From a virus: DNA of 64,000 nucleotides. This document shows positions 43,802 through 61,207 of this stretch, piece by piece. The DNA lies in the IMG/VR virus record IMGVR_UViG_3300020477_000001, positions 64,001 through 128,000 of that record; one strand, 5' to 3'. The notes under the pieces were generated by a model, which was not told where the DNA came from, searched no databases, and saw nothing but the letters and a program-made list of their open reading frames with translations. Every line of letters starts with the position of its first letter. Position 1 is the first letter of the stretch. A program made the position numbers and the translations under genes.

Positions 43802-43880
43802 TTGATATTATAACAATGTATACTATATTGTGGTGGCTTTCTGTGTTGGGTTGTTTCAAGAGCACAGTCGTCGCCAGTGA

Positions 43881-43913
43881 AGGGAGCGGGCTTTTGCCCG
43901 CTCTCTTTTTTTT
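43881..43913 (+). terminator. intrinsic terminator insulating the RNA-guided effector unit
   Basis: AGGGAGCGGGC TTTT GCCCGCTCTCT followed by T-run. Confidence 0.75.
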
Positions 43914-43922
43914 AAAAACTTC

Positions 43923-43951
43923 TTGACCGAAATTAAAAAACCATATAGCAT
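43923..43951 (+). promoter_or_regulatory. sigma70-type phage promoter for scaffold RNA and effector
   Basis: TTGACC-gaaaTTAAAAAAccata(17)-TAGCAT; predicted +1 near 43958. Confidence 0.7.
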
Positions 43952-43957
43952 AATCCC

Positions 43958-44120
43958 CAGTCGCTAACAGACTGCTACGGTGGGTTGCACCGGAAGGGGA
44001 GGGAAACCTCCAAATGCCGAATAGGTATGGTTCGCTTGCGAAGCAGATTCGGAAAGTTCCTAGGGGTCAACGGGGGGAGGATCATCCCGATCCTCCTCCC
44101 GCCCCCAAACCCTACAACAC
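43958..44120 (+). ncRNA. putative tracr/omega-like scaffold RNA of the TnpB/Cas12f-like effector
   Basis: Hairpins CAGTC/GACTG, CGGTG-GGTTG-CACCG, GGAGG-GAAA-CCTCC, CCGAAT/ATTCGG enclosing TTCG-CTTG-CGAA, long GC stem 44071-44101; ends in repeat-like CTACAACAC. Confidence 0.7.
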
Positions 44121-44129
44121 ATCTTTAAA

Positions 44130-45638
44130 ATGAAAAAAAAATCTAAACTTCAAAAGGTTGAACAAGAAACTATTCCTGTTAAATACCGAATCTACCCAAA
44201 CCTTAAGCAACGCAAATACCTTGACAGATGCTTTCTTTCCAGCCGAATCGTATGGAACTGGCTGCTAGGAGTACAGAAAGATTATGACCGTGGTCTTACT
44301 GAATGGGTAAAAGAAAAGTATGCCAAAGAGCTACAGAAATTCTGCAAGAAAGAAGGCTTCGAATTAAGCAGTCCATTTGAGCACGAAAAAATAAAAGAAT
44401 TAAAAAAAGGAGAAGCGAAAAAATTTCACACGGAAGTCATTCGCCTCAAGAAGGAGGAAGTTTTCCCCTCTGTCTTAGGGATAGAACTCCTTAAAGCCAT
44501 TATTCCTAATGCAGAAGAAGACGAAATCAAGAAGATGATAGTCAACAAAAAGAATCCTTCCGCTTCTAACAAGACTATCAACATCATGGACTTAAAAAGG
44601 CAAGTAAAAAACCTTCGAGAAGATAAACCAATCTTAAACCAAGTCGCATCCCAAGGAATCCATCACGTACCGCTTAACCTAGCTAAAGCTTGGAAGGCGT
44701 GCTACGACAAGAACCGCCCAGATTCCGGTGAGCCTAAATTCAAGAACAAATTCGCGAAGCAGTCATTCACTTTTGACACAGCAAAGCTTCAAGGAAATAA
44801 GTTATTCCTCCCGCCTAAAAGCAAAAACATTTTCATTAAAACAAAAGTCCATCGAGAGATGGAGGGTGAGCAAAAAACAATTACTGTTACTAAAAGCAAA
44901 ACAGGAGAATACTACGCCTCAGTTAACTTTAGGCAAGATGTATTCTTCCCGAAGCCCAAAAGTTTTAGTAAATCGAGCACGGTTGGCATTGACCTAGGAA
45001 TTAAAGATGACTACATCATTATGTCTAACGACATGGGGTCAATCAAAAACCCAAAATTTTTCAAGAAGCATGAGCGCAAAATCGCAATGCTAAATCGAAA
45101 ATTATCGCGCTCCCAGCCGAATAGCAATTCACGCAACAAAGTTCTACACGAGCTTAACCGCGAGTACGAGAAGCTCTCTAAAGCAAGGGAAGATTTTCAG
45201 CATAAGGTAACACACCAGATCGTAACTAACCCAAACATCAAGGCGGTGGCTGTCGAGGACTTGAATGTGAAGGGCATGACAGCTAAGAACAAACCAAAGG
45301 AGGGCGAAAATGGCCACTACTTACCAAACAATCAGTGCGCCAAACGAGGACAAAACAAAGCCACTCTGGACGCTGGGTTTGGAAGAGTTAGGCAGATGCT
45401 TGACTACAAATGTAAGCGCAATGGCAAAACGTTTGGAAAAGTTGACAGGTTCTTTGCATCCTCCAAAACATGCAACAACTGCGGTCATATCAATAAAGAG
45501 CTCAAAGTTTCCGACCAGTACTGGACCTGCGAAAAATGTGGCGAGCATCACGAGAGGAACTTTAATGCGGCAAATAACGTGCGAGATGAATTTATACGCG
45601 CAAGCAAGCAGAAAAAGAAAACCAAGAACTCGAAATAA
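44130..45638 (+). CDS. tnpB: TnpB/Cas12f-like RNA-guided protein, RuvC-III Asp replaced by Asn
   Basis: YRIYP...SRIVWNW N-terminus, GIDLG (D288), VEDL (E376), SSKTC..C, C..C zinc ribbon, HERNFNAANN (N477); no tnpA nearby. Confidence 0.85.
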   Translation: MKKKSKLQKVEQETIPVKYRIYPNLKQRKYLDRCFLSSRIVWNWLLGVQKDYDRGLTEWVKEKYAKELQKFCKKEGFELSSPFEHEKIKELKKGEAKKFHTEVIRLKKEEVFPSVLGIELLKAIIPNAEEDEIKKMIVNKKNPSASNKTINIMDLKRQVKNLREDKPILNQVASQGIHHVPLNLAKAWKACYDKNRPDSGEPKFKNKFAKQSFTFDTAKLQGNKLFLPPKSKNIFIKTKVHREMEGEQKTITVTKSKTGEYYASVNFRQDVFFPKPKSFSKSSTVGIDLGIKDDYIIMSNDMGSIKNPKFFKKHERKIAMLNRKLSRSQPNSNSRNKVLHELNREYEKLSKAREDFQHKVTHQIVTNPNIKAVAVEDLNVKGMTAKNKPKEGENGHYLPNNQCAKRGQNKATLDAGFGRVRQMLDYKCKRNGKTFGKVDRFFASSKTCNNCGHINKELKVSDQYWTCEKCGEHHERNFNAANNVRDEFIRASKQKKKTKNSK

Positions 45639-45649
45639 TTTTTGCCCAA

Positions 45650-45703
45650 GTGGCTGGCGGCGGCAGAGACTTTTATCTCTTCGGTCCTTGCTCCGCCAGC
45701 CAC
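45650..45703 (+). terminator. long GC-rich hairpin after the effector gene
   Basis: GTGGCTGGCGG...CCGCCAGCCAC followed by ATTTT. Confidence 0.45.
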
Positions 45704-45839
45704 ATTTTAAAATAAATAAAAATGAAAAGCGACAATCCAAACCGAGGCAACGGCAAGCACATTCATAAGTCACCAATCAATATGGACAATCCACAAAAAA
45801 AAGAGGATAGTGACTGGTGGGCAGAATTGTGTAAAAAAC

Positions 45840-51390: not shown

Positions 51391-51435
51391 AGGAACAACA
51401 ACACAGCACCAAAGATACTATCTCCGTAGCATACT

Positions 51436-51846
51436 ATGAACATCAAAAGAGAAACAACAACAGCATGGGTAGTTTTCCCAGAATATACCCAATGGGAAAA
51501 CAAGGACAATAAAATGTTCTGGGATGAAGATTACGACCTAGAAGCTGCCGCAGATGCTGCCGTAAAACATTCATGGAAAAAGCCCATAATGACTAGAAAA
51601 TGGCCTCGGCCTGTCACTTTCGGTGACTTTGTGCTTGTTACCAATAGCAATTCAAGCGAGTGGTTTAAGATGATTCGCTGTAAAGGCGGATGTAATGGCT
51701 ATGAGTGGCAAGTCTCATCTTGGGAAGAGGTTTTTGGCGAAGAGGCGGCAGTTAGGAAAGACATGAAAGGATACCTTGAAGACGCTGCTAAAGTAAATGA
51801 CGCCCTAACTGAATTTGAGGAGAAACAATGCACAACGGAAAAGTAG
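51436..51846 (+). CDS. hypothetical protein
   Basis: ORF in operon. Confidence 0.5.
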   Translation: MNIKRETTTAWVVFPEYTQWENKDNKMFWDEDYDLEAAADAAVKHSWKKPIMTRKWPRPVTFGDFVLVTNSNSSEWFKMIRCKGGCNGYEWQVSSWEEVFGEEAAVRKDMKGYLEDAAKVNDALTEFEEKQCTTEK

Positions 51847-52262
51847 GATTTACTTGTAGCTGCTTTGACCTTTTACACGCTGGCCACTGCTTGATGCTGA
51901 AGGACTGCAAAGAGCAGTGCGACTGGCTTGTCGTTGGCCTCCAAACCGACCCCAGCGTCGATAGACCAGAGAAAAACAAACCAGTCCAGTCACTTGAAGA
52001 AAGAAAGATACAATTAGAAAGCATAAAGTACGTTGATCAAGTGCAAATATACGAAACAGAATCAGACCTAGTAAAACTGATTGAGGATGTCCATCCAGAC
52101 GTAAGGATACTCGGTAGCGATTATATAAATAAAAAATTCACTGGCGATCACCTAGACATTCCCGTATACTACCACGAAAGAAACCACGATTGGTCCACTA
52201 GCGATTTAAGAAAAAGAATCAAAGGGGAATGGCCTCACCATACAGACTATCTGGATGACTAA
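51828..52262 (+). CDS. glycerol-3-phosphate cytidylyltransferase-like protein
   Basis: FDLLHAGH, VGLQTDP..DRPEKNKP, RNH.WSTS.LR. Confidence 0.8.
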   Translation: MHNGKVGFTCSCFDLLHAGHCLMLKDCKEQCDWLVVGLQTDPSVDRPEKNKPVQSLEERKIQLESIKYVDQVQIYETESDLVKLIEDVHPDVRILGSDYINKKFTGDHLDIPVYYHERNHDWSTSDLRKRIKGEWPHHTDYLDD

Positions 52263-52490
52263 CCAGCGTACTGCAACACAATAAAAAAACGCGATTAATA
52301 AAATAATGAAAGCCTTTCCTTTAGTTCTTTTAATTTTATTTATTTTTATTTCTGGCCCTTTAGTTACCATTTGGATGCTTAATACTCTATTTTCTGTAGA
52401 TATTCCATACACTTTGGAAACTTGGGCTGCTGCTTTTGTATTAGGAGCCGCGCTTTACGGTCCTAACGCAAGGAAAGAACTACGCGATAA

Positions 52491-52769
52491 ATGAAGAGAG
52501 TAGATATACAAAATCATATAAATGAACACTACCCAGAAATGGATGAAGATATTCTTTTAGCTGATGGATTCGAGAAAGCTTTTTTGGGGATTGCTAATAG
52601 TTATTGCTCCGCGCCCAGAGCTTGCTATGATGCTGATAAATGTATAGAAATCCTAGAAAAGAGAGACGGAATGAGTCATGAGGAAGCTATTGAATTTTTT
52701 AATTTTAATGTTTCTTCTGCTTATGTCGGGGAGTTTACGCCAGCATTTATGAAATTGGCGCATAGTTGA
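52491..52769 (+). CDS. conserved hypothetical phage protein
   Basis: LLADGF..AF.G...YD..KCI..L...GM..EEA.EFF.FNV..AY.G..TP. Confidence 0.6.
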   Translation: MKRVDIQNHINEHYPEMDEDILLADGFEKAFLGIANSYCSAPRACYDADKCIEILEKRDGMSHEEAIEFFNFNVSSAYVGEFTPAFMKLAHS

Positions 52770-53039
52770 TATTTCTTGACACTGTTTTTGTTTATGTTAT
52801 TTTTTCGGCCATGAGAATGGCCGACTTCGTGAAAGGGCATAATAAGCTGAAAATTAGCAGTTTTCAGTACCTTTGTGCGTTTCAAGCTGGCCACTTAGAT
52901 AAAGACAAGGATGATTCTTATTGTCCTTATACATTTCCGCCGCAAATAGAAGCATATTTTCAAGGTAAAAAAAATAAAAACAAAAAAATTATTAACAAAT
53001 TCTTGACTTAATTAAAAATGAATGGAATAGTGGGACTCC

Positions 53040-53993
53040 ATGAGTAGCTACCTAGAAGAAAAGTCGTCGGAAGATTTATATTTTAATGAAATTTCAAGAT
53101 ACGATTTAATCTCCTCGGATCGAGAAAAAGAGTTAGCAAAAAAAATAAAAAAAGGCGGAAGAACTGGCAAAAAAGCCCTTGAAGAATTAGTTAATGCTAA
53201 TTTAAGATTAGTCGTAAAGATAGCTGGAGAGTTCAAAGGCTTTGGGTTGGATTCTGGCGATTTAATCAACGAGGGAAACCTCGGATTGATGAGGGCCGCT
53301 GAAAAGTATGATGGCCGCGAAGGCGTTAAGTTTTCAACATATTCCGCGTATTGGATAAGGCAAAGTATCTACAGAGCCCTCTCGAATAAGAGCAGAACAA
53401 TTAGGCTTCCCGTTCATGTTTGCGCTGCTAATTCTAAAATAATTAAATTTATTTCAAAATACCAAGAATCCAACAATGGAAAAAAGCCTTCAGTTAAGCA
53501 GATAGCGAAAGCCACCAACGCAACAGAAAGATTGGTGTCGGATGTAATAAATGGTGGAGTGACCAACGTAAACTCTCTAGACAGAGAAATCGGAACTGAT
53601 GACAGCGGCTCTAAAGAGACCCTAGGGAACATAATTGAGGACCAAAACGCTGAATCCCCCGACCAAATCTGGAAAAACGTGGAAGATGTTAGTATTCTAT
53701 TAAAATTGATACAAAAATTAAATAATAGAGAAAGATACATAATTTGCAATAGATATGGAATAGGAACCAAGACCCCAAAAACTCTAGAAGAAATTGGGGA
53801 ACACTTCGGCGTTACTAGGGAAAGAATAAGGCAGGTACAAAAAGTAGCAATGATGAAGTTAAAAAACTACATGGATAAGTATTATAGATACAAGCCAGAG
53901 GTTGAGGATCATTATGTTGAAGGCCGAAGATTTGTAGCAAGGGTTAAAAGAGAAGAAAAAGCCAGAGAAAAGAAAAAAAAGGTTAAAAAATAG
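53040..53993 (+). CDS. sigma-70 family (RpoD/RpoS-like) sigma factor
   Basis: ANLRLVVKIA, DLINEGNLGL, KFSTY..YWIRQ, RTIRLPVH, TLEEIG...VTRERIRQ. Confidence 0.92.
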   Translation: MSSYLEEKSSEDLYFNEISRYDLISSDREKELAKKIKKGGRTGKKALEELVNANLRLVVKIAGEFKGFGLDSGDLINEGNLGLMRAAEKYDGREGVKFSTYSAYWIRQSIYRALSNKSRTIRLPVHVCAANSKIIKFISKYQESNNGKKPSVKQIAKATNATERLVSDVINGGVTNVNSLDREIGTDDSGSKETLGNIIEDQNAESPDQIWKNVEDVSILLKLIQKLNNRERYIICNRYGIGTKTPKTLEEIGEHFGVTRERIRQVQKVAMMKLKNYMDKYYRYKPEVEDHYVEGRRFVARVKREEKAREKKKKVKK

Positions 53994-54245
53994 TGTAATT
54001 TTTTTAAGAACTGCTACACTGGTTCAATAATAGAATAACAATCAAACTAAATATGTAAACACAACAACAATAAAGGGGGCGCATGAAAGATTCAGAATTA
54101 TTATTAAGGGAGGTTTCTTTTGAGTTATTAGGCAAGTTGAACGATACTTACGAAAGTGATTCCGAATATGCGGCGGGGCAAAGGTTTGCATACCTTAAAT
54201 CAATTTTAATCATTAAAAAGAAACTATCTGAAACTAGGAATAATA

Positions 54246-54815
54246 ATGCCAAGACACCCAATTGATGATGAGGTTTACACGTTCGACGATATAGGCAAAA
54301 ATGCGCCAAGGTTGAGCTACAATCGTAAAATTAAAAAGATCGTCTTCGAGAACTACGAAGCTTTCTGGCTTTTGCTTCACGCCACAAAACACCCAGATAT
54401 TATTAATGGAGTTATCTTTGAAACAGATGACAACTTCAAGGCTCATTATATAAAACAAACAGGGGATAAAGACTTAAATAATCTTTATATAAATAAATTT
54501 ATTTTAAAAGAGATGATGGAGGCTATGAACATAAGCGACCAGCATGATACCTTCCAAGGGTCATTCCAAGATAAGAATATGCACCTCTGGATGACCAACC
54601 AAAATGAATCCGAGAACATGGAGGATGCCAAGGTTCTCAGCAGTAAGTCTCAGTCAGAGCGGCAGAAGAGATTTGATCAAAAGACCAAGGAGAGAGAGCA
54701 ACAAGGAGAAGAAAGAATGAACGCACAAGAATTCCTTGAGTGGTCATCGGAGCATGTAGAAGAAGACTTAAAAAAGAGAATAGATGCAGGAGACACAAAT
54801 TGGAAATTCTTATAA
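54246..54815 (+). CDS. hypothetical protein
   Basis: 189-aa ORF. Confidence 0.5.
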   Translation: MPRHPIDDEVYTFDDIGKNAPRLSYNRKIKKIVFENYEAFWLLLHATKHPDIINGVIFETDDNFKAHYIKQTGDKDLNNLYINKFILKEMMEAMNISDQHDTFQGSFQDKNMHLWMTNQNESENMEDAKVLSSKSQSERQKRFDQKTKEREQQGEERMNAQEFLEWSSEHVEEDLKKRIDAGDTNWKFL

Positions 54816-55682
54816 TGCAAAAGCCAGACAACAAAATGAAGCGCTGGCTAAACTCTCAGACCAAAGATTTAAAAAAAATTAATTTTAATTCTCTGGTAAA
54901 TTCATTCAAAGACAAGTTTAAGGTCAGTATCAACGATGCTCGTATGTACGTGATGCAATGGGACCACGACAGAAACAAGCATTAAACCGCCGTATTAGAT
55001 GCTTGACATATATTAAAAAACTCCTTATCATATATCTACAGACATACCTTAAGATATATATAGGAACAAACAATGGACTTAATATTTGCGGCAATAGTGA
55101 TATACTTCTTCTGCTTTGCTTTTAAGCAGCTAGTCAAGGATTTGTAAATCGAGGGGGAGCTACAACACAACAAATTGTGAAAACAATAGCCCTGTTTTTA
55201 CGAGCTTTTTACACATTTTTTAAAACACTCACAGTGAACTACAACACTATAAGCTAGTATGGAACTAATAAACACAATAAAGCATTTCAAAAGAATAAAA
55301 TAAAATATTGAAGTGTATTAAAATGGGTTAATGTGGGGTGCATATTATATATATATCCGTCAAGCATTAAATTTAAAAACTATTCACATATTTATTAACA
55401 CTGAAACCACGTCAAGCAAAAACAACAAAAAACAATAAAAAACTTATTAATATTTTCTAAGTCAAGAAAAAACAAACAAAAACTTAAAAAATTATTATTG
55501 ACTATATAGCAAATATATGGGCTTAAAACCAAGAAAAGAAGGAGAAGCAAAAAGAATAGCAACATACATAATATTAATCATATATGGAATTGTTATACTT
55601 ATAGTTTATCTATTAAATAAATTATTTTCTTGACACAGATAAATGGAATTAAAACACAATAAAGAATAGAGGGTTTTTTTTG

Positions 55683-55792
55683 TTGACTTAACTTAAATAA
55701 ATTAGTATAATGTTTCCAAAGGGGCTTCATCACAACAAAGGTAAGATTTTTCTTGACTTAAGTTAAATAATATATTAAAATTTTCCAAAGGG
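55683..55792 (+). promoter_or_regulatory. tandem near-duplicate sigma70 promoters upstream of the repeat field
   Basis: TTGACTtaacttaaataaattagTATAATgtttccaaaggg and TTGACTtaagttaaataatatatTAAAATtttccaaaggg. Confidence 0.7.
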
Positions 55793-56101
55793 ATTTTTTT
55801 TATTTTTTTTAATTCTTATAATAGGAATTATTTTTTTCTTGACAAGTAAATAATGTTTCTTATTCTTATTATGCTTAAGGAGCTACACCACGTTATTAAC
55901 ACCAACGTACACGGAACTACACCACCCATTTGCCGACGATTGATTTTTAAGGAACTAAAGCACGGATTCGAACTCACGTCTGGAACTACGACACCCATTT
56001 ACCAAGGAGCCGCAACACGTCGAATGCAGTGGTATATTTGTGAACGCAATCGAGCCAAATAATAGGAACTAAATACACGAGGTCGGGAGTTCAGAAAAGC
56101 C

Positions 56102-56130
56102 TTGACTCATCTTAAAAAACTCTTCATAAT
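56102..56130 (+). promoter_or_regulatory. promoter of the CRISPR array
   Basis: TTGACT-catcTTAAAAAActctt(17)-CATAAT. Confidence 0.7.
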
Positions 56131-56226
56131 AGTCCCCAGATTAAGAAACTGATCTTTGACATAGGCACTGCAACACACGAGGCCAAAGACATTCAAGGGA
56201 CTACAACACAACATTATGGTATTCCT

Positions 56227-56777
56227 TAGCAATTTAAGGGACTGCAACACAGTAAGGCGATTATAACATCGCGCTCGACGGTTCGCACTGGTACTAATTT
56301 AAGGGACTGCAACACTGCAACCATGCTAACTAACGTGGTTACACAGCTTCGCACTGGTAGCAATTTAAGGGACTGCAACACTGTTACACACATCGCTGCG
56401 ATGAAGCGGCGGCTTCGCACTGGTACAGATTTTAGGGACTGCAACACCGTATCAGAACGAGATATCGTCCCGCCTTGGGCTTCGCACTGGTAGCAATTTA
56501 AGGGACTGCAACACTTAGTCGAACCGCATAACGTCGAGTGTCTGCTTCGCACTGATAGCAATTTAAGGGACTGCAACACAATGAGGCAGATAATGGAAGG
56601 GGTAGCTAGCTTCGCACTGATAGCAATTTAAGGGACTGCAACACAAAACTGCACCAACAGGAAGCGGAATCACAGTTTTGCACTGGTACTAATTTAAGGG
56701 ACTGCAACACAAGGGGTGACGTAGTGGAAGCGACCACATAAGCTTCGCACTGGTACAGATTTTAGGGACAACAACAC
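56227..56777 (+). CRISPR. CRISPR array: 8 full 36-nt repeats plus 1 partial, 8 spacers of 29-31 nt
   Basis: Consensus GCTTCGCACTGGTAGCAATTTAAGGGACTGCAACAC at 56280, 56346, 56412, 56479, 56544, 56609, 56675, 56742; unique spacers. Confidence 0.93.
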
Positions 56778-56797
56778 AGTAAAGAACCCTACGTACA

Positions 56798-57659
56798 TAT
56801 TTGTGAATGATTTTTGGACAAATAAAGGAACAACAACACTGAATCTCTAGGCGATATTTGTGAATGATTTTAAGGCAAATAAAGGGAACTACAACACTCT
56901 GTTAAAGTCCGTCCAACACGAGGCGGCGAGAATTGATGCCGATCAAAATACTTAATTATTGATTGACTAATTTTTTTGTCGCTCATTTGTGAACGTCAAA
57001 GAGGCAAATAATATAGGGGAATTAAATTAGATATTTTAGATTAATAGGGACTAATTAAACACGATGCTCAATCCCAATATTGTTAATTTATGAATGATTT
57101 TTTGCCAAATAAGGGTTATTTAACATAAGGGAATTTCGTATACAAGAAAAATGTTGCCCCGGAGAAAACACCCCCTTATAAGAAATATATTAAAGGAACT
57201 AAAACACAACAAAAGTGATGAAGAATTTAATTTTAATTATTATTATTTTAATTATTACTGGTTGTTATACAGCCAAGGAAAGAGTAATGCCTCTTGGTCC
57301 CCATGATGATAGCTATGGTAAGAATTGGGTAAGTAATTAAGGAACTGTAACACCAAATCCAGCATGGCGTTTAGATATTTTGGGAACTAAAACACGGGTA
57401 TAGCTCATTTGAAATAGGAACTAGAACACATGTGGTGCGCCATTATATTTGTGAACGCGATTTTTGCAAATAAAGGAACTACAACACCAGCGGTTTCAGA
57501 AGCTATCTGTGAACGCGATTTTTGCAAATAAAGGAACTACAACACCCGTCATGGAATTATAACACTAACTCCTCAGATGGAACTACAACACGTTGAGATA
57601 CTGCTTTCGCGGGAGCTATCTGTGAACACAATTTTTGCAAATATAGGGAACTACAACAC
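56798..57659 (+). repeat. second repeat class: hairpin TATTTGTGAA..TTTTGCAAATA followed by GGAACTACAACAC
   Basis: Copies near 56035, 56798, 56856, 57446, 57504, 57617; degenerate copies near 56984 and 57085. Confidence 0.75.
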
Positions 57660-57890
57660 GACGGGAACTCACGACGGAGAGTTAATCAAGGAACAACAAC
57701 ACGAAAACTTTTTCTGTATTCTTGATCTTGTAATGGAACTACAACACTCAAGGGCGGCTCATTTTAATTTAAAATAAAAAAGGGAACTACGACACTTGCT
57801 ATTATTAATTGTATCTTTAATTAGTGTAATTATTATTGTCTATAAGTTTTTATTGACTGTAATTAAATTGCTCTATATAAAAGGATACAC

Positions 57891-58127
57891 ATGAAAAAAA
57901 AGAAACTATCCCCGCAAGCCCAAATATACGAGAAGGCTTGGAACGACGTAGTGTCCGAAATGAGTGACCATAAAAGAAATATTATTATTAATAATTTTAC
58001 TGTTGTCAGTGGTCATCATGTATATGAGAATAAATATGATCAAAGGGTAGCAGATGAAGCAGCTAAGGAAGCCCGTATACGAGGTGACCAACAAATAGAA
58101 GCACTGTTTCCAACTGGCAAGTATTAA
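57891..58127 (+). CDS. hypothetical protein
   Basis: ORF with promoter and AAGGA SD; mini-repeat follows the stop. Confidence 0.55.
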   Translation: MKKKKLSPQAQIYEKAWNDVVSEMSDHKRNIIINNFTVVSGHHVYENKYDQRVADEAAKEARIRGDQQIEALFPTGKY

Positions 58128-58278
58128 AGGTACTACAACACGAGCGGGCACTACAGTGGTAGGAACAACAACACAGTCCCCTGCTATAATCTATGGAACT
58201 AAAGCACGAGTGCATATAGTAGAAAAAAATAAAAAAAAATAATTGACTTAAATTAAAAAAAACTTCATACTGGTCGCC

Positions 58279-58521
58279 ATGAAGAGAAAAGGTTCTGGCA
58301 AAACAAAGGGAGCGACCAGCTTCGTACAAGTGACACTGGGAGAGCTCAACCGCGTACTCAAAGAGGGTGCAGTGGTTGTGGTCAGTCGCAAGTACGCCGA
58401 GCAACTGGAGCTCGATTCTAAGCCCATGTATTCTAATTACAAGAATCTTGAGGCCCACTCAAACCAAATCGATGTCAAGATCGATGAACCGGAGGACACA
58501 ATTGATTTCAAAGTAGAATAA
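58279..58521 (+). CDS. hypothetical protein
   Basis: Leaderless-type start after TTGACT promoter. Confidence 0.6.
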   Translation: MKRKGSGKTKGATSFVQVTLGELNRVLKEGAVVVVSRKYAEQLELDSKPMYSNYKNLEAHSNQIDVKIDEPEDTIDFKVE

Positions 58522-58594
58522 TGGAATAACAACACGAACGAAAAGACTTCATAAAAGTCTTGACCTAACTTAAAAAACTATATAATATATCCCT

Positions 58595-59554
58595 ATGACG
58601 AACGAACGAACTATCCCCAACCCTTTCGAGGGTATCATTGGCCAAAAGAAGGCTAAGAAACAGATAAACTTTTACAGGCGAGGCTACAATGCCACAGGTA
58701 TTCTTCCTCACCTATTGTTTGTTGCTCCGAAAGGATGCGGCAAGACCATGCTGGCTAAGGCTGTTAAAGACACTCTTATGTCCAGAGAGAACCCAGAGAA
58801 AGCTAAGAAGTTTCTGGAGATTAACTGCTCTACGCTTCGCAACGTCAAGCAGTTCTTTAATCAAATCATGATTCCTCATGTTCAACACGAGGAAGTCACA
58901 ATCTTATTCGATGAATCCTCTGAGATTCCTCACGATGTTTCGATGGCACTGCTTACGTGCTTAAACCCGAACAAGCATAATCGTAACGAGTTCTCTTACG
59001 AGGACTATACGGTAGAGATTGACTTCTCGCGACACACTTTCATGTTCGCCACCACCGAGGTGCAGACCATGTTCCACGCTCTTATTGACCGATGCAAGCG
59101 CATCGATCTACAGGAGTACTCTTTAAAGCAACTCGGACAGATTCTCAAGGTTAACCTTGAGGGTATCGAGTTCGAGGAGGGTCTGATGCCCGACATCGCC
59201 TCTACTCTTAGGGGCAATGCTCGTAAAGCAGTTCAGACTGCCAACGACATTTCCTCGTACATGGCGGCGGAGGAGCGAGGTTACTTCACTCGCAAGGACT
59301 GGAACCTGTTCAAAGATGAGCTAGGAATCGAGCCACTCGGATTGTCTCCGATTGAGATTCAACTCTTAGAGATTCTCAACGACAAACCAGAGTGCAGCTT
59401 GACCTACCTGTCAGCCAAGACTGGCATGACCAAGGCGGCAGTACAGAGGGACATTGAGATGTACCTTCTCAAGAACGATCTAATGGAGATCGGCACTGGC
59501 GGACGCAAGATCACCAACAATGGACGTGAGACCTTGGAGGTCATCAATGGATAA
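58595..59554 (+). CDS. ruvB: RuvB-like AAA+ ATPase (Holliday junction branch migration)
   Basis: IIGQ..AK, PHLLF.AP.GCGKT, LFDE, ATT, RGNAR, GL...E...L, C-terminal E.YL.....I...GR.IT. Confidence 0.75.
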   Translation: MTNERTIPNPFEGIIGQKKAKKQINFYRRGYNATGILPHLLFVAPKGCGKTMLAKAVKDTLMSRENPEKAKKFLEINCSTLRNVKQFFNQIMIPHVQHEEVTILFDESSEIPHDVSMALLTCLNPNKHNRNEFSYEDYTVEIDFSRHTFMFATTEVQTMFHALIDRCKRIDLQEYSLKQLGQILKVNLEGIEFEEGLMPDIASTLRGNARKAVQTANDISSYMAAEERGYFTRKDWNLFKDELGIEPLGLSPIEIQLLEILNDKPECSLTYLSAKTGMTKAAVQRDIEMYLLKNDLMEIGTGGRKITNNGRETLEVING

Positions 59555-59885
59555 AGTTACTGCGGAACAGCTTAAGAGAGAGCCATCGGCTCCCTTCGAT
59601 AGAATCGTTCGTCATATGGAGGATTTCCTCGCTGCGCGGATGTGCAGCGAGGAGTCCTTCAACCAAGTGAAGCGTAACACCTACAAGTACACAGACTGCG
59701 GCGCTTGGATTGACGAGGACGAGAACGGTATTACTGTAGGAAGTATTGTCGAAGGAGCAGACTACGGAACCTCGACTTACGTTTTAATCTACCCATTCAA
59801 GATTCAAGAATTCTGGGATGCATTGAATGAAGTAGAGATGGAGGCTAAACAAATCTGGGAGGAGGTCAATGGAGAAGAACAATGA
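59547..59885 (+). CDS. hypothetical protein
   Basis: ORF coupled to ruvB; YKYTDCGAW, GSIVEG. Confidence 0.55.
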   Translation: MDKVTAEQLKREPSAPFDRIVRHMEDFLAARMCSEESFNQVKRNTYKYTDCGAWIDEDENGITVGSIVEGADYGTSTYVLIYPFKIQEFWDALNEVEMEAKQIWEEVNGEEQ

Positions 59886-60216
59886 CATAGACTTCGCAAT
59901 ATTAAACCAAAAAAGATATGAAAAATATAAAGGAATTAATTTAAGTACTTGTTTCTTAGTACATGAATCAGAAAAGGGACACATGAAGGACTGGACTTGT
60001 ATCACGCGGAATGATGACTTCTTTAGAGTAAACATTATCGCAGGTATGGTCTCAATGATGAGAGGAGAAACAGAGTACGACATTACGGGACCAGCAACAA
60101 ATATACTAAACCCCGTACTAGGATTACAGAACAAAGAAGATTTGGAAAAATGTAAATTCTCTGATATAAAGAAGTTTATGAAATGGAGAATCAATAAAGA
60201 TAACTATATAGAATAA
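59869..60216 (+). CDS. hypothetical protein
   Basis: ORF in operon. Confidence 0.45.
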   Translation: MEKNNDIDFAILNQKRYEKYKGINLSTCFLVHESEKGHMKDWTCITRNDDFFRVNIIAGMVSMMRGETEYDITGPATNILNPVLGLQNKEDLEKCKFSDIKKFMKWRINKDNYIE

Positions 60217-60405
60217 GATTATGAATAAGAAAGATACAAATACATATGTTGTTAAGATGACCGAAACCAGCAACGGAGTGGTCGTAGACTCAGTGCAGCA
60301 ACTCGTACAAGTGCTCGGTGTAGATCGTGAGAAGTATAAGACTATCGACAAGCGCGACTTCACCAGCAAGCATCTCAATACTGTTACTAAATTCACAGCG
60401 CGTTA

Positions 60406-60633
60406 ATGAAGAAGTCTCACTGGAAAGAAGGTCTTGAAATACCCAAGCCACCAAAGGGAATCACTCACGCCCAAATAAAGTGTGGCAAGAAGAAGTCTAC
60501 CGTAACTATAAACGACTTCGACACTTTCCGAGGGGTAGAGGGAATGGTGCGCTGGGGTAAGCAAAAGAAGAACAGTAAAACAATTGAATTAATAGGAGAA
60601 GAATTCTTTTGGGACGGATTTAAAGTAGAATAG
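60406..60633 (+). CDS. hypothetical protein
   Basis: ORF; its stop overlaps a mini-repeat. Confidence 0.5.
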   Translation: MKKSHWKEGLEIPKPPKGITHAQIKCGKKKSTVTINDFDTFRGVEGMVRWGKQKKNSKTIELIGEEFFWDGFKVE

Positions 60634-61207
60634 GAACTACAACACAACATAATATTCGCGACTCGCAAGGGAACTACAACACGTTCAAGGACTTGGTATA
60701 AAAATTTCCTCCCAAACCGTGGGCTATCCCAACCCCACACCGGAGTCGATGGAATAGAGGCGGAAGAGAGCTCCGCACTAGCGATGGGGATATCGCTACG
60801 TTTAACACCATCGGCTCCTTGACTTCTTTCAAATAACCTCGTATACTAATACCAGCAAACCAAATAATACAATTTTATCTTTCCTGTATTATTGAAAGTT
60901 CAAACTTCTTAATGTCTCTATGCAATTTAGGGACAACTTCTGCCCTTCATCGGCAAACAAAAATGAATCAAATAACACCAAATAAAAGCGAACCATATAC
61001 GAACAAATAATAGACAAATAAAATAGATATAAGAATATAAGAATATAAAATTTGGCGGGTGACCCTATAATAATAGAACAACAATTGTTAATAACTTTTT
61101 AATAATGTTAATAATTTTTTCTTGACTTAAACATACAGAAAAACGGAATAACAATTATTTTTTTCTTGACAAGCAAAATCGTGTAGAAAATTTTTTATAT
61201 TTTTTTG

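What the first reader, a model, noticed from the sequence alone, without database searches (positions are those of the whole stretch)
43958..44129. Scaffold RNA lies upstream of the effector and ends in a built-in repeat whose 'guide' would be the effector's own start region
SEEN: five to six stems beginning at the predicted +1, including GAAA and CUUG tetraloops. TAGGG (44061-65) can pair with CCCTA (44110-14), closing a long hairpin and leaving CAACAC free, as in a natural single guide. The next bases (ATCTTTAAAATG) include the start codon. From memory, segments GGTGGG.TTGCA, AATG.CGA and TTCGGAAAGT resemble, in order, the Un1Cas12f1 tracrRNA; this needs alignment. KNOWN: IS605 omega RNAs normally lie at the 3' end of tnpB. 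INFERENCE: the 5' UTR can fold in cis, so protein binding would occlude its own translation start (autoregulation), or act in trans with array-derived crRNAs.
Basis: partly seen in the sequence, partly recalled or inferred. Interest (0 to 1): 0.75.

Follow-up and report, generated by a model that had tools for sequence, protein, structure and literature searches.

The report
Phage tracrRNA leader with built-in half-repeat
The folded RNA in front of this marine phage's small TnpB-like CRISPR protein is the system's helper RNA (tracrRNA), made as the leader of the protein's own message, and it still ends in half a CRISPR repeat, so it looks like a transposon guide RNA only partly split into two.

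Summary
Window 43959-44120 is a structured RNA of about 162 nt. It starts at the +1 of a phage promoter and runs, with no terminator or second promoter, into the 502-aa TnpB-like effector gene.

Homologous leaders precede every relative found, in six clades. In 11 curated leaders (W, M, D1, D2, E), eight helices show 93% pairing and compensatory changes.

It is a tracrRNA. Its anti-repeat co-varies with the local CRISPR repeat in four ways:
- AGUUCCU:AGGGACU
- UAUUCCU:AGGGAUA
- AGUCCU:AGGACU
- AAUCCUC:GAGGAUU

An invariant loop, GGUUG, faces the repeat's CAAC.

The "built-in repeat" is real. The tail CUACAACAC equals the 3' end of this phage's commonest mini-repeat. Distant clade F carries a complete built-in mini-repeat, and clade E has lost it.

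- The TAGGG:CCCTA helix is possible but clade-specific. Covariation supports GGGG:CCCC instead.
- The Un1Cas12f1 strings exist but are not conserved. The protein is TnpB-like, not Cas12f-like.

Autoregulation through the cis "guide" over the start codon is plausible but untested. No second target exists in the genome.

This is a new variant of the published TnpB-to-CRISPR intermediates (TranC). The scan has noted similar fused tracrRNA-repeat layouts in other phages.

The parts
43879..43918 (+). Intrinsic terminator of the upstream cell-wall-hydrolase gene. It isolates the leader and effector as their own transcription unit.
   Evidence: 13-bp G+C-rich stem followed by a T run.
43923..43951 (+). 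Promoter, TTGACC-17 nt-TAGCAT, of the phage's own promoter family. Predicted +1 at about 43959.
   Evidence: Consensus scan. The genome has 21 family copies, 11 with a start codon at offset 35-37. The same CCCC|AG start context precedes the CRISPR array at 56102.
43958..44044 (+). tracrRNA body: helices S1-S5. S2 (43978-92) presents the invariant loop GGUUG (43983-87), the proposed pseudoknot partner of the repeat's CAAC.
   Evidence: Curated helices with compensatory changes. Covariance model R1 finds the leader in all relatives.
44055..44061 (+). Anti-repeat AGUUCCU. It pairs with AGGGACU or GGAACU of the repeats and mini-repeats.
   Evidence: Duplex -9.2 kcal/mol. Co-variation with the repeats in clades D2, E and F.
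44063..44105 (+). Terminal hairpin: S6 (GGGG:CCCC) enclosing the 12-bp S7. No U-tract follows.
   Evidence: S6 and S7 change compensatorily between clades.
44106..44120 (+). Tail: linker CAAACCCUA plus the built-in half-repeat CAACAC. With the preceding CUA it is identical to the mini-repeat's 3' end.
   Evidence: Homologous tails occur in clades M, D1, D2 and F and are absent in E.
44121..44140 (+). The cis 'guide' position: the first 20 nt after the handle, including the effector start codon (44130-32).
   Evidence: Read from the sequence. There is no second match in the 158-kb genome beyond chance.
44130..45638 (+). Effector, 502 aa, TnpB fold with an enlarged helical N-terminal part. RuvC-I D288 and RuvC-II E376 are kept; RuvC-III is N477 instead of D.
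   Evidence: Pfam. PDB sequence and fold matches to ISDra2 and ISFba1 TnpB. Alignments. Model pLDDT 94.
45650..45709 (+). Terminator-like long hairpin after the effector gene.
   Evidence: Read from the sequence. Not scored by the simple scan.
56102..56897 (+). Family promoter plus the CRISPR array: 36-nt repeats ending GGGACUGCAACAC, 29-31-nt spacers, flanked by degenerate and minimal repeats.
51392..60682 (+). Zone holding all 24 GGRAY..CAACAC handles of the genome, all on the + strand. These are the trans partners of the leader.
   Evidence: Genome-wide regex search. RCAACAC occurs 40 times against 10 expected.

Best explanation
Window 43959-44120 is the tracrRNA-type scaffold of a phage-borne, TnpB-derived (TranC-like) CRISPR system. 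It is transcribed from a phage promoter as the 5' leader of the effector's own mRNA.

In trans it serves about 35 crRNA units, from the remote 36-nt-repeat array and the scattered 13-nt mini-repeats. The anti-repeat AGUUCCU pairs with GGGACU or GGAACU of the handle. The invariant loop GGUUG pairs with the handle's CAAC. This matches the pseudoknot formed by nt -6 to -2 of the ISDra2 omegaRNA.

In cis the leader keeps the pseudoknot-forming half of a repeat (CUACAACAC) after its terminal hairpin. The leader-mRNA is therefore an incompletely split omegaRNA whose 'guide' is the translation start region.

The most likely consequence, which is inferred and not shown, is negative feedback. Effector that loads on its own message covers the start codon, 10 nt after the handle, or exposes the coding part to decay. 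That leaves a stable scaffold RNA.

Sub-confidences:
- tracrRNA role: 0.9
- tail derived from a repeat: 0.85
- tail functional in cis: 0.45
- autoregulation specifically: 0.3
For: Structure. Eight helices, 93% paired against 39-50% in slid controls, with compensatory changes in each. The fold z-score is -3.9.

Conservation. Every full-length relative whose upstream DNA could be read has the leader in front of the gene. These relatives share 26-95% protein identity and form six clades.

Anti-repeat and repeat co-vary:
- W and D1: AGUUCCU:AGGGAC(U)
- D2: UAUUCCU:AGGGAUA
- E: AGUCCU:AGGACU, one base lost on each side
- F: AAUCCUC:GAGGAUU

Loop GGUUG is invariant in all 11 curated leaders and is kept in clade F (L041, L044, L047). 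The handle's CAAC sits at -6 to -3, where ISDra2 forms its pseudoknot (PMC10097598).

One transcription unit. A terminator lies before the promoter, nothing promoter- or terminator-like lies between the scaffold and the ATG, and a hairpin follows the ORF.

Tail:
- W: 9 of 9 nt identical with the local mini-repeat.
- D2: the tail equals the local repeat's UUUU...AACAACAC.
- F: a complete cis mini-repeat (AGGAUUACGACAAC), identical to a repeat variant in L044's array.
- D1: the 3' module folds as a closed long hairpin with AA(A/G)CAC left free.

Tree. (W,M)+(D1,D2) is sister to E, and F lies outside. The cis repeat therefore looks ancestral and was kept across lineages that are about 60% divergent in protein.
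Against: - No expression data.
- Clade E works, judging by its large arrays, without any CAACAC tail. The tail is therefore dispensable for tracrRNA function.
- In D1 the tail is imperfect (CAAACAC or CAAGCAC), leaving only a 3-bp pseudoknot.
- The cis closing helix uses different registers in W, D1 and F. Each is only weakly better than shuffles (p about 0.004-0.17).
- The GGUUG:CAAC pairing never varies, so covariation cannot test it.
- The distance from handle to AUG varies (9, 20, 24-27 nt), so a fixed occlusion geometry is not conserved.
Confidence: 0.45

Rival explanations
1. tracrRNA only. The leader acts solely in trans after processing or decay of the mRNA part. The CAACAC tail is a decaying relic of the unsplit omegaRNA or of a neighbouring repeat, and has no cis function.
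For: - Clade E lacks the tail yet keeps the scaffold, the terminal hairpin and arrays of about 10 to more than 20 repeats.
- D1 tails carry an insertion or substitution.
- L044's built-in repeat is degenerate (AGGAUUAUAAUU).
- No second target exists for the cis guide.
Against: - The tail has been kept in W, M, D1 and D2 across about 60% protein divergence.
- In W and D2 it matches the local repeat variant base for base.
- The variants seen in the tails (CAAACAC, AAGCAC, CAGCAC) also occur in working repeats and mini-repeats.
Confidence: 0.4
2. The cis guide directs the RNP to DNA. Either it represses a promoter through a partly matching site, as tracr-L and CreR do, or it cuts or marks related phages that lack the element, as in homing.
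For: - Precedents exist: a natural single-guide tracr-L (10.1101/2020.05.21.102756) and cr-like regulators (10.1101/2023.03.03.530964, 10.1101/2023.03.10.532045), seen.
- One mini-repeat unit of this phage (51392) has a perfect 19-nt self-target next to a promoter, so self-regulation by guides does occur here.
Against: - The leader's 18-20-nt guide has only low-complexity matches with 3-4 mismatches elsewhere in the 158-kb genome.
- The clade F guide of L047 has none in its record.
- At its own locus the 5' flank is the handle itself, not the ..CCTT flank of the one self-target.
- The guide lies inside the element (the effector's own start), not in flanking DNA, so it does not fit homing.
Confidence: 0.07
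3. The leader is a diverged homologue of the Un1Cas12f1 (Cas14a1) tracrRNA, and the system is type V-F.
For: Four short strings are shared in order with a published Cas14a1 sgRNA. Both repeats end in GCAAC, which pairs with a hairpin loop.
Against: - The protein matches TnpB far better than Cas12f: phmmer 1e-30 against 1e-4 to 1e-5, and Foldseek 8h1j, 8iaz and 8exa rank first.
- UUCGGAAAGU is GUUGGAAAGU, GUAGAAAAGU or GCAACAAAAU in the sister clades. In Un1 it belongs to a hairpin (CUUUC-UUCG-GAAAG) that is absent here.
- No Rfam family matches.
Confidence: 0.05
4. It is not an RNA gene. It is either an N-terminal coding extension, as gene callers made in two relatives, or a generic structured 5' UTR.
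For: The called ORFs of P0003 (556 aa) and P0004 (531 aa) run through the leader.
Against: - Loop and helix length changes of 1-3 nt, compensatory pair changes and a 28-nt inserted hairpin are incompatible with coding.
- The anti-repeat co-varies with the repeats.
Confidence: 0.02

Closest known systems
TranC, transposon-CRISPR intermediates (Jin et al., Cell 2025, doi 10.1016/j.cell.2025.09.004). Known to me through PMC13565253 and bioRxiv 10.64898/2026.03.27.714800; LaTranC structures 9jfo and 9jfq.
   Same: A TnpB-like effector of about 500 aa without cas1/cas2 or tnpA, a CRISPR array with 36-nt repeats, and a guide split into tracrRNA and crRNA. Some published TranCs are phage-borne.
   Different: LaTranC matches only over the zinc-ribbon part (E 1e-18), so clade membership is untested. 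Here the tracrRNA is the 5' leader of the effector mRNA and keeps half a repeat in cis. The array lies 12 kb away with many 13-nt mini-repeats. RuvC-III is N.
ISDra2 TnpB omegaRNA/reRNA (PMC10097598)
   Same: The protein's closest solved relatives by sequence and fold. The same guide-pseudoknot-stem logic: bases -6 to -2 pair with a 5' region, and the single RNA acts as a 'natural sgRNA'.
   Different: The omegaRNA overlaps the 3' end of tnpB and the transposon's right end, and its guide is flanking DNA. Here the scaffold lies 5' of the gene, there are no transposon ends or tnpA, and the cis guide is the gene's own start.
Un1Cas12f1 (Cas14a1) tracrRNA/sgRNA (sequence as printed in PMC12955468)
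   Same: A hairpin loop pairs with the repeat's terminal GCAAC, a second repeat:anti-repeat duplex lies nearby, and a few short strings are shared.
   Different: The shared strings are not conserved in this family. The effector is much closer to TnpB. Cas12f tracrRNAs are separate genes, not effector leaders.
tracr-L of type II-A (natural single guide that represses Pcas; 10.1101/2020.05.21.102756) and CreR / cr-like RNAs (10.1101/2023.03.10.532045; 10.1101/2023.03.03.530964)
   Same: A scaffold or repeat-like RNA encoded next to the effector gene that could feed back on effector expression.
   Different: Those RNAs base-pair with a PAM-flanked promoter site on DNA. No such site exists for this guide, so any feedback here would act on the mRNA itself.
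TldR, TnpB-like nuclease-dead repressors (as summarised in PMC13565253)
   Same: A TnpB derivative with a damaged RuvC site. One guide of this phage has a self-target next to a promoter.
   Different: Only one of the three catalytic residues is changed (D to N). The guides come from CRISPR-like arrays plus a tracrRNA, not from a single adjacent guide RNA.
IscB omegaRNA (recalled from my own knowledge, not checked here)
   Same: The guide-RNA scaffold is encoded upstream of the effector ORF.
   Different: A different protein family. The guide is at the 5' end of the scaffold and points away from the gene.

Membership tests
tracrRNA of a type V / TranC-like system | An anti-repeat complementary to the CRISPR repeat, kept by co-variation. 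| tested here: met
   Four matched pairs of anti-repeat and repeat across clades. The own-versus-foreign duplex matrix favours the own pair in D2.
tracrRNA of a type V / TranC-like system | A conserved secondary structure encoded beside the effector. | tested here: met
tracrRNA of a type V / TranC-like system | Expressed as an RNA that is bound by the effector and needed for guide use. | not testable with these tools
No biochemistry is available.
TnpB omegaRNA (natural single guide) | The scaffold is continuous with a pseudoknot-forming strand and a guide. | tested here: inconclusive
   The tail supplies CAAC at -6 to -3 opposite the invariant GGUUG. Clade F has a full cis repeat. The pairing never varies, and clade E lacks the tail.
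TnpB omegaRNA (natural single guide) | Overlaps the 3' end of tnpB and ends at the transposon's right end, with tnpA or IS ends present. | tested here: not met
   The scaffold lies 5' of the ORF. No Y1 transposase is present in the complete genome.
Type V-F (Cas12f) system / Un1Cas12f1 tracrRNA | The effector groups with Cas12f, and the tracrRNA is homologous. | tested here: not met
   TnpB structures rank first by sequence and fold. The shared strings are not conserved.
tracr-L / CreR-type autoregulator | The guide is partly complementary to a PAM-flanked site in the effector's promoter. | tested here: not met
   No match in the promoter region or elsewhere beyond AT-rich chance hits.
Adaptive CRISPR-Cas locus | The cas1/cas2 adaptation genes. 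| tested here: not met
   No Cas1 in the complete 158-kb genome. cas2 was not searched.
TldR-like nuclease-dead effector | Loss of RuvC catalytic residues. | tested here: inconclusive
   RuvC-III is D to N in W, M, D1 and D2, while D288 and E376 are kept. E and F keep DRD. Activity is unknown.
Any Rfam family | A score at or above the gathering threshold. | tested here: not met
   Searches gave only chance hairpin hits.

The most novel reading that the evidence does not exclude
The leader is a dual-use RNA caught midway through the omegaRNA-to-tracrRNA split. In trans it is the tracrRNA for dozens of minimal crRNAs. In cis its retained half-repeat lets newly made effector load on its own mRNA, with the start codon inside the guide channel. 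This sets effector dosage by blocking translation or by trimming the message, and turns each spent mRNA into a scaffold RNA. The series F (full cis repeat), W/M/D (half) and E (none) within one protein family would then record the split step by step.
Probability: 0.25. Interest if true: 0.75.

Novelty: new variant of a known kind. Interest (0 to 1): 0.58.

Why it matters
It gives a natural, graded series of the proposed RNA-splitting step that turned transposon guide RNAs into tracrRNA plus crRNA, all within one small phage protein family. It does this in an unusual layout, where the scaffold is the effector's own mRNA leader.

If the cis tail is functional, it would be a form of effector autoregulation that acts on the mRNA rather than on a promoter. 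It would also offer a compact design in which scaffold and nuclease come from one transcript.

The matched anti-repeat and repeat variants also define exactly which bases a minimal 13-nt handle needs.

Tried and rejected
- Viral-contig search with the protein found nothing.
- A first DNA pattern found nothing in viral contigs. It gave 25 metagenome loci, of which only 5 were real: L020, L024, L027, L030 and L031. L020 is the same contig as L002. The rest were chance matches and were rejected by nhmmer and by the covariance model.
- GenBank phages hold no close effector relative and no protospacers for the array.
- Spacers and mini-repeat guides from all the loci held do not hit one another or this genome. 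The only hits were tRNA false positives. No PAM could therefore be derived beyond the single self-target flank.
- MAFFT and the first covariance model both misaligned the W-clade terminal hairpin. Helices were therefore cut by position in a script. Because I defined them from the sequences, the slid control is biased in their favour.
- The whole record behind L041 is not held.
- A weak internal promoter before the D1 start codon was considered. It was dropped because the hexamers are poor and it is absent in W.
- A terminator role for S7 was dropped for W, because no U-tract follows.
The Un1Cas12f1 comparison was therefore done by eye against the printed sgRNA.

Full report
**Setting.** The window is bases 64001-128000 of a complete 158,301-bp virus record with direct terminal repeats. 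ORF 44130-45638 encodes a 502-aa protein with the three TnpB/Cas12f Pfam domains. About 12 kb downstream lies a CRISPR array. Its 36-nt repeats end in GGGACUGCAACAC, and its spacers are 29-31 nt. Around the array, between 51392 and 60682 and only on the + strand, lie all 24 handles of the form GGRAY..CAACAC in the genome. Many are bare 13-nt mini-repeats. The genome has no Cas1 and no Y1 transposase.

**The observation.** The 172 nt fold better than all 200 shuffles (z -3.9) and form a G+C-rich island. A strong intrinsic terminator (43879-43918) ends the upstream gene, and a promoter (43923-43951) follows.

That promoter belongs to a family with 21 copies in the phage. Eleven copies place an ATG or TTG start of an ORF of 58 aa or more 35-37 nt after the TTGAC, which implies leaderless mRNAs. 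This fixes the likely +1 at about 43959. The copy in front of the CRISPR array has the same CCCC|AG start context. Nothing promoter-like or terminator-like separates the scaffold from the ATG, and a long hairpin follows the ORF. The scaffold is therefore the 5' leader of the effector's own message.

**Relatives.** The protein family is very small. Among 1.84 billion cluster representatives only three are full-length relatives. The scores then drop to ordinary TnpBs of about 400 aa. Contigs for these relatives, and for others found by DNA pattern, all carry a homologous leader in front of the gene:

| Clade | Members | Protein identity to the window |
|---|---|---|
| W | window, L002-5 | 95% |
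| M | L006 | 68% |
| D1 | L009-13, L024-31 | about 40% |
| D2 | L008 | 43% |
| E | L039, L043, L045 | 39% |
| F | L041, L044, L047 | 26-28% |

Covariance model R1 recovers all of them and rejects the chance pattern matches.

**Structure.** I cut the leaders into helices by position:
- Eight helices are shared: S1-S5, an inserted hairpin in D and E, and S6 and S7.
- 426 of 460 cells pair (93%), against 39-50% when the 3' partner is slid by 1-3 nt.
- Every helix has positions that change on both sides. For example, S2 reads CGGUG/CACCG, CCGUG/CACGG and CUGUC/GACAG around an invariant loop, GGUUG.

**It is a tracrRNA.** The single-stranded stretch after S5 contains AGUUCCU, which pairs with AGGGACU or GGAACU of the repeats. 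This pairing co-varies with the local repeats:
- D2 has UAUUCCU with repeats AGGGAUA.
- E has AGUCCU with repeats AGGACU. One base is lost on each side.
- F has AAUCCUC with repeats GAGGAUU.

The handle's CAAC lies at -6 to -3 from the guide, opposite the invariant GGUUG. In the ISDra2 omegaRNA, bases -6 to -2 form the pseudoknot with a 5' region, and that paper calls guide-pseudoknot-stem the common plan of Cas12 guides (PMC10097598). GGUUG:CAAC never varies, so covariation cannot test it.

**The built-in repeat.** After the terminal hairpin, the leaders end as follows:

| Clade | 3' end of the leader | Relation to the local repeat |
|---|---|---|
| W | CAAACCCUACAACAC | last nine bases equal the 3' end of the phage's commonest mini-repeat |
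| M | CUACAGCAC | - |
| D2 | UUUUAACAACAC | its own repeat (UUUUAGGGAUAACAACAC) without AGGGAU |
| D1 | CAAACAC or CAAGCAC | variants also seen in working repeats |
| E | no such motif | - |
| F (L041) | complete mini-repeat AGGAUUACGACAAC | identical to a repeat variant in L044's array; the L041 MFE pairs it with the anti-repeat |

In D1 the 3' module folds into one long closed hairpin and leaves AA(A/G)CAC free.

The effector tree places (W,M)+(D1,D2) as sister to E, with F outside on a long and poorly placed branch.

The particular TAGGG:CCCTA helix is possible only in W and M, and it excludes S6 (GGGG:CCCC), which is the helix that changes compensatorily to GAG:CUC. Analogous closing helices exist in D1 and F but in other registers, and each is only weakly better than shuffles.

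**The Un1Cas12f1 resemblance.** A published Cas14a1 sgRNA does contain GGUGGG, UUGCA, AAUGUCGA and UUCGGAAAGU in that order (PMC12955468). In the sister clades these strings differ, and UUCGGAAAG belongs to a hairpin in Un1 that is absent here.

The protein matches ISDra2 TnpB at E 1e-30 and Cas12f at only 1e-4 to 1e-5. A confident model (pLDDT 94) is closest to the ISDra2 and ISFba1 TnpB structures, with Cas12f, LaTranC and Cas12p behind. The likeness is therefore architectural, not a family tie. Rfam has no matching family.

**The effector.** RuvC-I D288 and RuvC-II E376 are kept. The RuvC-III aspartate (ISDra2 D361) is asparagine in W, M, D1 and D2, while E and F keep DRD. This bears on function: the branch that keeps the half-repeat tail may bind rather than cut, but activity is unknown.

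One mini-repeat unit (51392) has a perfect 19-nt match about 20 bp upstream of a family promoter elsewhere in the genome. At least one guide therefore points at the phage itself.

**How it most likely works.**

Shown by sequence:
- The leader is the tracrRNA.
- It is co-transcribed with the effector.
- It retains a repeat-derived tail.

Inferred:
- Effector can load on the leader-mRNA as on an omegaRNA, with the start region (AUG at +10 to +12 in W) in the guide position. This would block initiation or lead to trimming of the message.
- Such loading would also explain how scaffold RNA can outnumber intact mRNA.

Against the cis function:
- Clade E manages without the tail.
- The D1 tails are imperfect.
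- The handle-to-AUG spacing varies.
- No RNA data were available.

A DNA target for the cis guide is unlikely. There is no second match in the genome, and at its own locus the 5' flank is the handle.

**Comparison and novelty.** The system fits the published concept of transposon-CRISPR intermediates (TranC) and the RNA-splitting model. Membership in a named TranC clade could not be tested.

The new features are the leader position of the tracrRNA, the retained half-repeat over the start codon, and the graded series across clades. Earlier notes of this scan report fused tracrRNA-repeat layouts in other phages. I did not test those. They do not change the evidence here, but they suggest that the layout recurs.

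Noticed in passing
window 51392-51428; target at genome 134317-134335 (window coordinate about 70317-70335, outside the window): A mini-repeat unit (handle ...ACAACACAGCAC) is followed by a guide with a perfect 19-nt match to the minus strand. The target lies at the 3' end of an ORF, about 20 bp upstream of a family promoter (TTGACT). Its 5' flank is ..CTCCTT. This is a candidate self-regulatory target and the only hint of a PAM.
   Followed up: partly
whole genome; in the window e.g. 43290, 48471, 50473, 53003, 58243, 58560: A promoter family, TTGACn-(taaatTAAAAAAc)-TAnnnT, with 21 copies. Eleven copies have the start codon of an ORF of 58 aa or more exactly at the predicted +1, which suggests widespread leaderless mRNAs. 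Five copies (43923, 55003, 56102, 26444 minus and 190 minus) have no ORF start within the scanned 30-59 nt.
   Followed up: partly
window 45558-45560 (codon N477 of the effector): The RuvC-III catalytic Asp is Asn in clades W, M, D1 and D2, but Asp in clades E and F. D288 and E376 are kept. The effector may be nuclease-impaired.
   Followed up: partly
window 55995-56018; L011:2010-2095, L012:885-965, L009:1-103: Mini-repeat units carry a 'spacer' that is conserved between phages whose effectors are only 40% identical (CCCAYTTRCCNA...). This points to a conserved but unidentified target.
   Followed up: no
window 56800-57700: A second grade of repeat: a different 5' part (TGTGAAYG...CAAATAAAGG) joined to the same 13-nt handle.
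   Followed up: no
L010:1647, L011:3905, L012:2810, L013:7650, L008:1660: In clades D1 and D2 the array starts at or over the effector's stop codon (for example TAG-GAAUUACAACAC). This is the position where a TnpB omegaRNA would end.
   Followed up: no
L055:1-50 (Salibacteraceae MAG contig end): A weak, cut-off covariance-model hit (E 0.0099) to the 5' part of the leader at the end of a 98-kb contig of a Flavobacteriales MAG. It may hint at the host or may be a mis-binned phage contig.
   Followed up: no
L011:1715-1965: Three tRNA-like genes lie directly upstream of the mini-repeats and leader in a clade D1 phage.
   Followed up: no
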